The position numbers were made by a program, and so were the translations under genes. A stretch of DNA of 64,000 nucleotides from the NCBI GenBank assembly GCA_964016885.1, contig OZ024740.1, positions 312,356,001 through 312,420,000 of the forward strand, in the 5' to 3' direction. Shown in pieces: positions 49,014 through 49,408 of the stretch. Each line of letters starts with the position of its first letter. The stretch's first letter is position 1. Source of the DNA: Eledone cirrhosa (lineage: Eukaryota). The notes under the pieces are model-generated. The model was not told the origin of the DNA and ran no database searches. It saw nothing but the letters and a program-made list of their open reading frames with translations.

Positions 49014-49408
49014 TATAATGAAATGACAGGAGGCTGGATTTGTGTAAATCCTTGAAAGGTTTATTATACTATGATCATTTCAATGACCGGGTTCCGTATG
49101 AATCTGGTGATATCATCAGGTATTCAAAATATAATACCTGAATGTAATAGATAAAATCCATGGGGCTAAAAATCGAGGACCCGAGGGCGACCGCTATTCT
49201 GTTCCTTCAACCTCAGCCGGTCGCCCTGGAGTGACGTGGCTAAAGTTTATAGTCATTTCATTATAATATTTAACTCCGTAATATTACCACCAACTACAAA
49301 AACAAAGACGGTTGAACTGCTTTACGTTGAGTTCTCTCTATATTATTGCATTACGATTGACCATACGGAATAGACCAGCTCTATACAGTGGTGAACCCCG
49401 AACCTGAA
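49014..49408 (-). mobile_element. Non-coding hammerhead-bearing element embedded in the giant (TA)n array
   Basis: About 390-bp complex-sequence island inside microsatellite, with a hammerhead core on the - strand and several inverted repeats. Confidence 0.65.
49066..49123 (-). ncRNA. Type I hammerhead-like motif with palindromic stem III
   Basis: Minus strand reads ATAC-CTGATGA-(imperfect 31-nt stem II)-GAA-ATGATCAT-A-GTAT. Stem I is ATAC/GTAT and stem III is the self-complementary ATGATCAT. Confidence 0.65.

What the first reader, a model, noticed from the sequence alone, without database searches (positions are those of the whole stretch)
49014..49408. Structured island inside a 7.9-kb (TA)n desert: hammerhead with a built-in anti-core hairpin
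Seen: the only complex sequence in the array reads, on the - strand, ATAC-CTGATGA-stem II-GAA-ATGATCAT-A-GTAT (predicted cut between 49070 and 49069). Stem III is a perfect 8-nt palindrome. Stem II is imperfect. Immediately 5' in the transcript, TCAGGTATT (rc of 49133-41) is perfectly complementary to AATACCTGA, which is stem I plus the CUGA of the core. An upstream 9-mer (rc of CATACGGAA, 49362-70) is complementary to the stem II loop. Also present are a 14-bp inverted repeat TATAATGAAATGAC (49014-27 / 49252-65) and a 10-bp GC stem AGGGCGACCG/CGGTCGCCCT. Known: a palindromic stem III allows dimeric cleavage in PLE hammerheads. Inference: this could be a conformationally gated ribozyme, off as a monomer and on when tandem copies pair.
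Basis: partly seen in the sequence, partly recalled or inferred. Interest (0 to 1): 0.75.

Follow-up and report, generated by a model that had tools for sequence, protein, structure and literature searches.

The report
Inverted stub of ORF-less Penelope element
The island is a short, mirror-joined leftover of a protein-less jumping element present about a thousand times in this genome's TA repeats; its hammerhead motif is a family trait, but the proposed on/off hairpin comes from one mutation seen in under 1% of copies and likely just disables this copy.

Summary
All listed motifs are present, but the gating story does not hold. The island is a 5'-truncated, head-to-head insertion of a young, ORF-less (2.4-3.1 kb unit) Penelope-like family that lands in (TA)n. 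The hammerhead with palindromic stem III is family-wide (5,444 intact-core matches in the wider family) and is the known dimer-type PLE ribozyme. The perfect anti-core hairpin needs G at 49138 (minus strand). Of 1,611 copies 1,583 have C, 12 G, 10 T, 6 A, and older subfamilies lack the complement. The 14-bp inverted repeat is sequence duplicated at the inversion. The 9-mer is a direct repeat in the natural element, complementary here only because one arm is flipped. This copy has one hammerhead, an extra stem II mutation and no tandem partner; it is predicted to be off even as a dimer. Its likely helper class is Hydra-clade PLEs: an intact 786-aa element here has a collinear end with a 144-nt tail. 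Left open: a family-wide 9-bp slipped helix over the cut site, without covariation. The scan has noted Hydra-PLE stubs before, in this and other genomes.

The parts
46559..54457 (.). (TA)n target array; its right end abuts an assembly gap (N run)
49014..49253 (-). Arm without tail: element positions -182 to +56 relative to the predicted cut, ending at the first fixed 3' terminus (E1) in (TA)n
   Evidence: 97.6% to the full unit in L031; positions
49252..49408 (+). Arm with tail, in opposite orientation: element positions +43 to about +199, ending at the second fixed 3' terminus (E2) in (TA)n; carries no hammerhead
   Evidence: 95.7% to the unit
49252..49253 (.). Inversion junction, 2-nt microhomology (AC on the minus strand)
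49066..49123 (-). Type I hammerhead motif: 4-bp stem I, CUGAUGA, long irregular stem II opening with U.U, GAA, palindromic stem III (49078-49071), predicted cut between 49070 and 49069
   Evidence: family-wide
49133..49141 (-). 'Anti-core' 9-mer; perfect only through the rare base at 49138 (G on minus strand; C in 1,583 of 1,611 copies)
49105..49105 (-). Private stem II change (family G, here A); isolated stem II falls from -9.1 to -2.9 kcal/mol
49128..49136 (-). Family-conserved segment able to pair with 49070-49062 (slipped stem I covering the cut site; its outer part can also serve as an extension of stem I)
49184..49227 (-). GC hairpin, a family feature with a variable loop; 5' truncation points cluster around it
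49014..49027 (.). 14-bp segment (+43 to +56) present in both arms; with 49252-49265 it forms the reported inverted repeat
49362..49370 (+). 9-mer in the tail; a direct repeat of the stem II loop 9-mer (49092-49100) in the natural element
   Evidence: same strand, offsets -31 and +152 in the unit

Best explanation
The island is a 5'-truncated, head-to-head insertion of an ORF-less repeat family with Penelope-type ends, likely copied into the (TA)n array by a Hydra-clade Penelope-like element acting in trans, and its perfect anti-core hairpin is a rare point mutation predicted to lock this copy's hammerhead off rather than to regulate it. Shown: the two arms, two fixed 3' termini about 144 nt apart, TA targeting, partial-tandem ORF-less master units, the rarity of the hairpin allele. 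Inferred: a tandem master is transcribed; the helper's GIY-YIG endonuclease nicks both strands of (TA)n; reverse transcription starts at E2 from one strand and at E1 from the other; both cDNAs stall, often near the GC hairpin, and are joined by microhomology. The family's hammerheads would cut only as dimers through the palindromic stem III, in tandem masters, and cutting does not appear to set the 5' ends of insertions.
For: Arms match a dispersed family at 96-98% on opposite strands; 9 other loci share the short two-arm layout. Pre-E1 25-mer 2,063 matches vs tail 25-mer 1,068, a ratio of 1.93. In the first 30 tail-bearing loci, 17 show two arms and 16 of them are one E1 plus one E2; 28 of 30 tails run into TA-type repeats. 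The full 2,905-bp unit is in partial tandem with an inverted arm and has no ORF of 100 aa; five more units show no RT ORF; tblastn with 6 PLE fragments finds nothing. Hairpin allele: C 1,583, G 12, T 10, A 6; two G loci have C in their other arm; G is the majority plus-strand letter at 49138 in all 4 outside runs. Hairpin -10.1 kcal/mol here vs -3.5, -3.1 and 0 in three other copies; active-dimer penalty 24.2 vs 9.9-13.5. L177 holds a 786-aa ORF with RWK, CxCX5C, YRDD and YIG, the Hydra diagnostics of PMC8557442; its end is collinear (E1 +58, E2 +202, tail 144) and aligns with score 62.5 vs shuffles 21.3+-9.9, 0 of 500. Inverted arm plus one-sided tail is the textbook PLE layout; tail = span between two RT start sites and hammerhead dispensable in vitro (PMC11167929). 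0 of 35 breakpoints lie within 5 nt of the cut.
Against: The exact helper was not found: blastn shows no direct similarity between the unit and two autonomous Hydra-type families, and the older subfamily aligns to L177 only weakly (7 of 500 shuffles). L177 has DNT where Hydra has DKT, and Pfam did not recognise it. The tail is about four times the published 30-40 bp. G (12) is not rarer than the CpG transition T (10), and both arms of one insertion (L066/L067) carry G, so the allele can occasionally be copied or arise by hairpin-templated repair. Folding energies ignore tertiary contacts; even typical copies are not predicted to favour the active fold in long context. Nothing was tested at RNA level.
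Confidence: 0.88

Rival explanations
1. One reading: a conformationally gated ribozyme in which an evolved anti-core hairpin keeps monomers off and tandem pairing turns them on.
For: The 9-bp hairpin is real in this copy and predicted at about 0.99 probability. The inner 4-5 pairs against stem I persist across the family. 12 copies carry the allele, twice as many as the other transversion (6).
Against: 12 of 1,611 copies (0.7%); core-covering pairs kept in 10, 3 and 14 of 27 rows; older subfamilies have unrelated letters there. The hairpin survives in the dimer model. This locus has a single hammerhead. 12 vs 6 is a small difference.
Confidence: 0.03
2. The family, not this copy, has a different built-in off state: the conserved upstream segment slips register and buries the cut site in a 9-11-bp helix until dimerisation or helper-protein binding refolds it.
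For: Run of 9 or more pairs in 63 of 71 copies; 9 inner pairs kept in at least 26 of 27 rows, one column alternating A-U and G-U; shuffle tests 99 and 49 of 5,000; predicted probability 0.39-0.99 in three copies. A PLE hammerhead that needs its protein is described.
Against: No change on both sides in that helix, covariation at shuffle level (211 of 500). Both strands are AU-rich and nearly invariant. The outer six pairs are equally an ordinary stem I extension. The youngest subfamily lost two of the pairs. The helix was found post hoc.
Confidence: 0.15
3. The element is a large non-LTR retrozyme that moves as a hammerhead-cut, religated circular RNA.
For: ORF-less, type I hammerhead, copies continuous across the cut site, partial tandems; retrozymes are proposed to be PLE derivatives.
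Against: The unit is 2.4-3.1 kb and the tandems seen are partial, not arrays of complete units each with a hammerhead; ends, tail and inversions are those of PLE insertions. Continuity across the cut also fits an uncut template.
Confidence: 0.2
4. The island is an assembly artefact in a low-complexity array.
For: The array ends in an N gap; no listed outside contig bridges the junction.
Against: Both ends fall at the family's two fixed termini, the junction has the usual microhomology, and 9 other loci, one in similarly long TA arrays (L007), have the same layout with different junctions.
Confidence: 0.03

Closest known systems
Insertion units of endonuclease-bearing Penelope-like elements (PMC8557442, PMC3846280)
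   Same: Frequent 5' truncation, partial tandems forming pLTRs, adjacent inverted truncated copy, tail on one end only, hammerhead in the pLTR, microsatellite target without clear TSD.
   Different: No ORF in the 2.4-3.1 kb unit; tail about 144 nt instead of 30-40 bp.
Hydra-clade PLEs, e.g. Hydra-1_Obim (PMC8557442 section 11 and supplement)
   Same: (TA)n targeting, canonical-core hammerhead; an intact element in this genome (L177) has the RWK and CxCX5C diagnostics, resembles the displayed Hydra-1_Obim protein by eye, and has an end collinear with this family.
   Different: This family encodes no protein; its hammerhead stem II and III differ from L177's; the exact helper is unidentified.
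PLE hammerheads with small palindromic helix III acting as dimers (PMC4209133)
   Same: Type I, short helix I (4 bp), long helix II, palindromic helix III, widespread single and opposite-strand pairs from truncated copies.
   Different: Helix II opens with U.U (or A-U after an extra U) instead of the conserved G10.1-C11.1 and has an internal C.C; activity untested.
Non-autonomous PLE derivatives: Chlamys MRC1 (PMC8557442) and animal non-LTR retrozymes (bioRxiv 10.64898/2026.07.22.740005)
   Same: No protein, PLE-type 3' end, mobilised in trans.
   Different: Much longer unit than a tandem retrozyme monomer; mostly present as inverted stubs, not arrays.
Anolis Poseidon PAc mechanism (PMC11167929)
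   Same: Two fixed reverse-transcription start sites downstream of the hammerhead define the tail; AT-rich targets nicked on both strands; no ends at the ribozyme cut.
   Different: Shown in vitro for PAc, only inferred here from genomic ends; spacing is longer here.

Membership tests
Penelope-like element insertion (structure) | pLTR formed by partial tandem | tested here: met
   L031: 892-bp partial copy before a 2,905-bp unit; 29 of 30 top unit-start loci are preceded by the family tail or an inverted arm
Penelope-like element insertion (structure) | Adjacent inverted 5'-truncated copy | tested here: met
   window and 17 of 30 tail-bearing loci within 1.5-kb flanks
Penelope-like element insertion (structure) | Tail at one end only | tested here: met
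   16 of 17 two-arm loci; 2,063 vs 1,068 matches; length about 144 nt, outside the published 30-40 bp
Penelope-like element insertion (structure) | Hammerhead motif in the pLTR | tested here: met
Autonomous PLE | Single ORF with RT and GIY-YIG endonuclease | tested here: not met
   no such ORF in 6 full units; hence non-autonomous
Hydra clade (as helper class) | (TA)n insertion preference | tested here: met
   28 of 30 tails end in TA-type repeats
Hydra clade (as helper class) | RWK, DKT and CxCX5C motifs in a related autonomous element | tested here: inconclusive
   L177 has RWK and CxCX5C, DNT for DKT; no tree built
Hydra clade (as helper class) | 3' end shared with an autonomous partner | tested here: inconclusive
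   collinear, 0 of 500 shuffles for the young subfamily, 7 of 500 for the older; no blastn hit
Dimer-type hammerhead ribozyme | Intact core CUGANGA, GAAA, UH, stem I, palindromic stem III | tested here: met
Dimer-type hammerhead ribozyme | G10.1-C11.1 pair closing stem II | tested here: not met
   U.U / A-U in all subfamilies; U also flanks stem II on both sides in other local families
Dimer-type hammerhead ribozyme | Self-cleavage as dimer | not testable with these tools
   needs an assay
Conformationally gated ribozyme (anti-core hairpin) | Hairpin conserved or covarying in the family | tested here: not met
Non-LTR retrozyme | Tandem array of at least two complete units each with a hammerhead | tested here: not met
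   window has one motif; masters seen are partial tandems of kb-size units
Non-LTR retrozyme | Circular RNA form | not testable with these tools
   no RNA run available

The most novel reading that the evidence does not exclude
This ORF-less Hydra-type family carries a conserved register switch in stem I that buries the hammerhead cut site until two RNAs pair or the helper protein binds, and its unusually long 144-nt tail lets one RNA be primed twice, once from each strand of a TA array, producing about a thousand one-tailed inverted insertions that could serve as a natural read-out of the unsolved PLE integration mechanism.
Probability: 0.13. Interest if true: 0.55.

Novelty: new member of a known kind. 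Interest (0 to 1): 0.22.

Why it matters
The proposed gated ribozyme is not there, so this locus is an ordinary dead stub. What has some value is the family: a young, kb-sized non-autonomous element with about 1,000 insertions, two sharply fixed 3' ends and correlated 5' breakpoints. PLE integration is poorly understood, and such a set gives statistics on how inverted arms and tails form. It also shows how single-copy structure reading misleads: inversion and one point mutation produced three apparent regulatory pairings.

Tried and rejected
Rfam at gathering score and E<=10: no hammerhead family hit. MITE or DNA transposon reading of the 14-bp inverted repeat: rejected, the repeat is an internal duplicated overlap whose length differs between loci. 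9-mer as loop II partner: rejected, direct repeat in natural orientation, and the loop varies between subfamilies. Search for the autonomous partner: five other hammerhead loci with the same palindrome were short stubs without ORF; 30 unit-start loci and 5 extended ones had no RT ORF; two autonomous families gave no blastn match; only the best 150 of 59,692 and 46,427 candidates were scored. Pfam recognised none of 5 PLE proteins or fragments. Sequencing runs: no RNA holder listed; outside contigs do not show this junction, which proves nothing. Pure fold-back of one cDNA was considered: it fits arms with matched 5' ends but not this copy, whose tail-less arm reaches 225 nt further upstream than the tail arm. 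One search crashed and was rerun. Paper searches (listings only, except papers named) showed no report of an anti-core hairpin in PLE hammerheads or of tails near 144 nt; subscription journals are not covered and the bioRxiv supplement was not seen.

Full report
Observation. The island is the only complex stretch in the TA array 46559-54457, which ends at an N gap. Rfam has no hammerhead match, but the motif is not chance: a core-plus-palindrome pattern matches 5,444 places in the 3.0-Gb genome and its reversed control none.

Anatomy. A genome search gave 3,022 candidates, 40 scored. In most hits the two halves of the island lie on opposite strands, so the island is an inversion. Relative to the predicted cut, 49253-49014 (minus) is element -182 to +56 and 49252-49408 (plus) is +43 to about +199, joined by a 2-nt microhomology. 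The 14-bp inverted repeat is the +43 to +56 overlap present in both arms. The 9-mer occurs twice on the same strand in the natural unit (offsets -31 and +152); it pairs with loop II in a fold of this copy only because the tail arm is flipped. The GC hairpin is a real family feature with a changing loop.

The family. L031 holds an inverted arm, an 892-bp partial copy and a 2,905-bp unit ending in (TA)n. The unit has internal 506-bp and about 230-bp repeats, no ORF of 100 aa and no tblastn match to six PLE fragments. Five further units gave only a repeat-derived 163-aa frame in four and no RT. Tandem spacings run from about 2.4 to 3.1 kb. Copies end at two fixed points, E1 (about +56) and E2 (about +200). 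A 25-mer before E1 has 2,063 matches and a tail 25-mer 1,068. Among the first 30 tail-bearing loci, 13 show one arm within the 1.5-kb flanks and 17 two; 16 of the 17 pair an E1 arm with an E2 arm, the other (L092) has an 82% diverged second copy; 28 of 30 tails run into TA-type repeats. This is the PLE layout described in PMC8557442 (passages; section 11; supplement look-ups) and PMC3846280 (passages), except that the tail is about 144 nt rather than 30-40 bp.

The anti-core hairpin. In 41 aligned copies only 2 have the G at window 49138. Genome-wide, with the flanking 29 letters fixed, the site reads C 1,583, G 12, T 10, A 6 of 1,611. The 12 G copies are 11 insertions; two have C in their other arm and one has G in both. 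Older subfamilies have different letters at this place. On 27 rows chosen for diversity, most of them selected for a changed base before the core and three for carrying G, the three pairs that cover the core junction are kept in 10, 3 and 14 rows. In all four outside runs the family letter dominates. The isolated hairpin is -10.1 kcal/mol here against -3.5, -3.1 and 0 in three other copies, and a second private change (49105) weakens stem II from -9.1 to -2.9. In a two-strand model the hairpin persists and the active dimer costs 24.2 kcal/mol against 9.9-13.5 for three other copies (secondary structure only). So the hairpin is real in this copy, is not a family trait, and would disable rather than gate. 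Against a pure accident: G is as common as the CpG transition, which may reflect hairpin-templated mutation; 12 vs 6 is too few to tell.

The ribozyme. Short stem I, long stem II and palindromic stem III match the dimer-type PLE hammerheads of PMC4209133 (parts 1-2 of 4 read), which cut weakly in vitro. The family lacks the usual G10.1-C11.1 pair. Other local families share the same palindrome or use other ones. In PMC11167929 (parts 1-2 of 4) the PLE ribozyme needs the element's protein, is dispensable for insertion, and the tail lies between two reverse-transcription start sites. In keeping with that, 0 of 35 breakpoints within -354 to +55 fall within 5 nt of the cut, while 17 of 35 fall in a zone around the GC hairpin covering 15% of that range (zone chosen post hoc). 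In 7 of 15 pairs the two arms end within 20 nt of each other (permutation p 0.006; L080 and L092 left out).

Helper class. An autonomous family found through a neighbouring endonuclease fragment has an intact 786-aa ORF in L177 with RWK, CxCX5C, YRDD and YIG, and DNT in place of DKT, which fits the Hydra clade description and resembles by eye the displayed Hydra-1_Obim protein. Its end is collinear with this family: E1 +58, E2 +202, tail 144, alignment score 62.5 against 21.3+-9.9 for 500 dinucleotide shuffles, none reaching it; the older subfamily gives 38.0, reached by 7 of 500. A second Hydra-type family shares only a short motif before E1 and has a tail near 86 nt. blastn finds no direct match with either, so the exact helper is unknown.

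What remains open. A conserved upstream segment can pair with the strand carrying the cut site: 9 or more pairs in 63 of 71 copies, shuffle tests 99 and 49 of 5,000, nine pairs kept in at least 26 of 27 rows with one A-U/G-U alternation but no double change and no covariation above shuffles. It may be an off state or simply an extended stem I in AU-rich sequence.

Comparison and verdict. It works like, and structurally belongs with, PLE insertions; it fails the autonomous test and the retrozyme array test (definition from bioRxiv 10.64898/2026.07.22.740005, part 1 of 5 read). PMC13282606 (passages) added nothing on ribozymes. The sequence look-up in earlier scan notes was empty; a word look-up after my Hydra reading was written returned four unchecked notes on similar stubs.

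Noticed in passing
window 54458 onward: The TA array ends at a run of N, so its length and right boundary are not established.
   Followed up: partly
L177:1594-3951 (minus), tandem spacing 3,180 bp: Intact 786-aa Hydra-type PLE with a hammerhead whose stem II region is about 85 nt long and a 144-nt tail; a young family with at least 150 endonuclease matches at 92-100% identity.
   Followed up: partly
L031 unit, L036, L177, L197 just before E1: Three families share a short CTGT(C/T)ATT motif 10-20 nt upstream of the first fixed 3' terminus; possible cis signal for the reverse-transcription start.
   Followed up: partly
L179-L207: A second young Hydra-type family with a long 3' UTR, a tail near 86 nt and no canonical CTGANGA core found by my scan (a CAGAAGA-like variant precedes a short stem and GAAA).
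   Followed up: no
L106-L110; also L008, L009, L040, L041, L059, L063, L074, L085: Many other hammerhead-bearing inverted stubs in (TA)n with palindromic stem III (ATGATCAT, ATGCGCAT, ATATATAT, ACTAGT); several have U on both sides at the base of stem II.
   Followed up: partly
L142:559 and 1516 (minus-strand frames), L031:6163-6999, L040:2097-2672: Fragments of another PLE type with a CX4CxxC linker (Neptune/Nematis-like by the description in PMC8557442), also in TA arrays.
   Followed up: no
run X6, loose end at window 49077: A contig from organism C joins the same 3' half of the hammerhead to a different stem II: a related family useful for covariation tests.
   Followed up: no
window 25487-27950, 45339-46479, 22553-23443, 58609-59715: Broken non-LTR retrotransposon ORFs (RT-like frames; family names not tested); one copy directly borders the left end of the TA array.
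   Followed up: no
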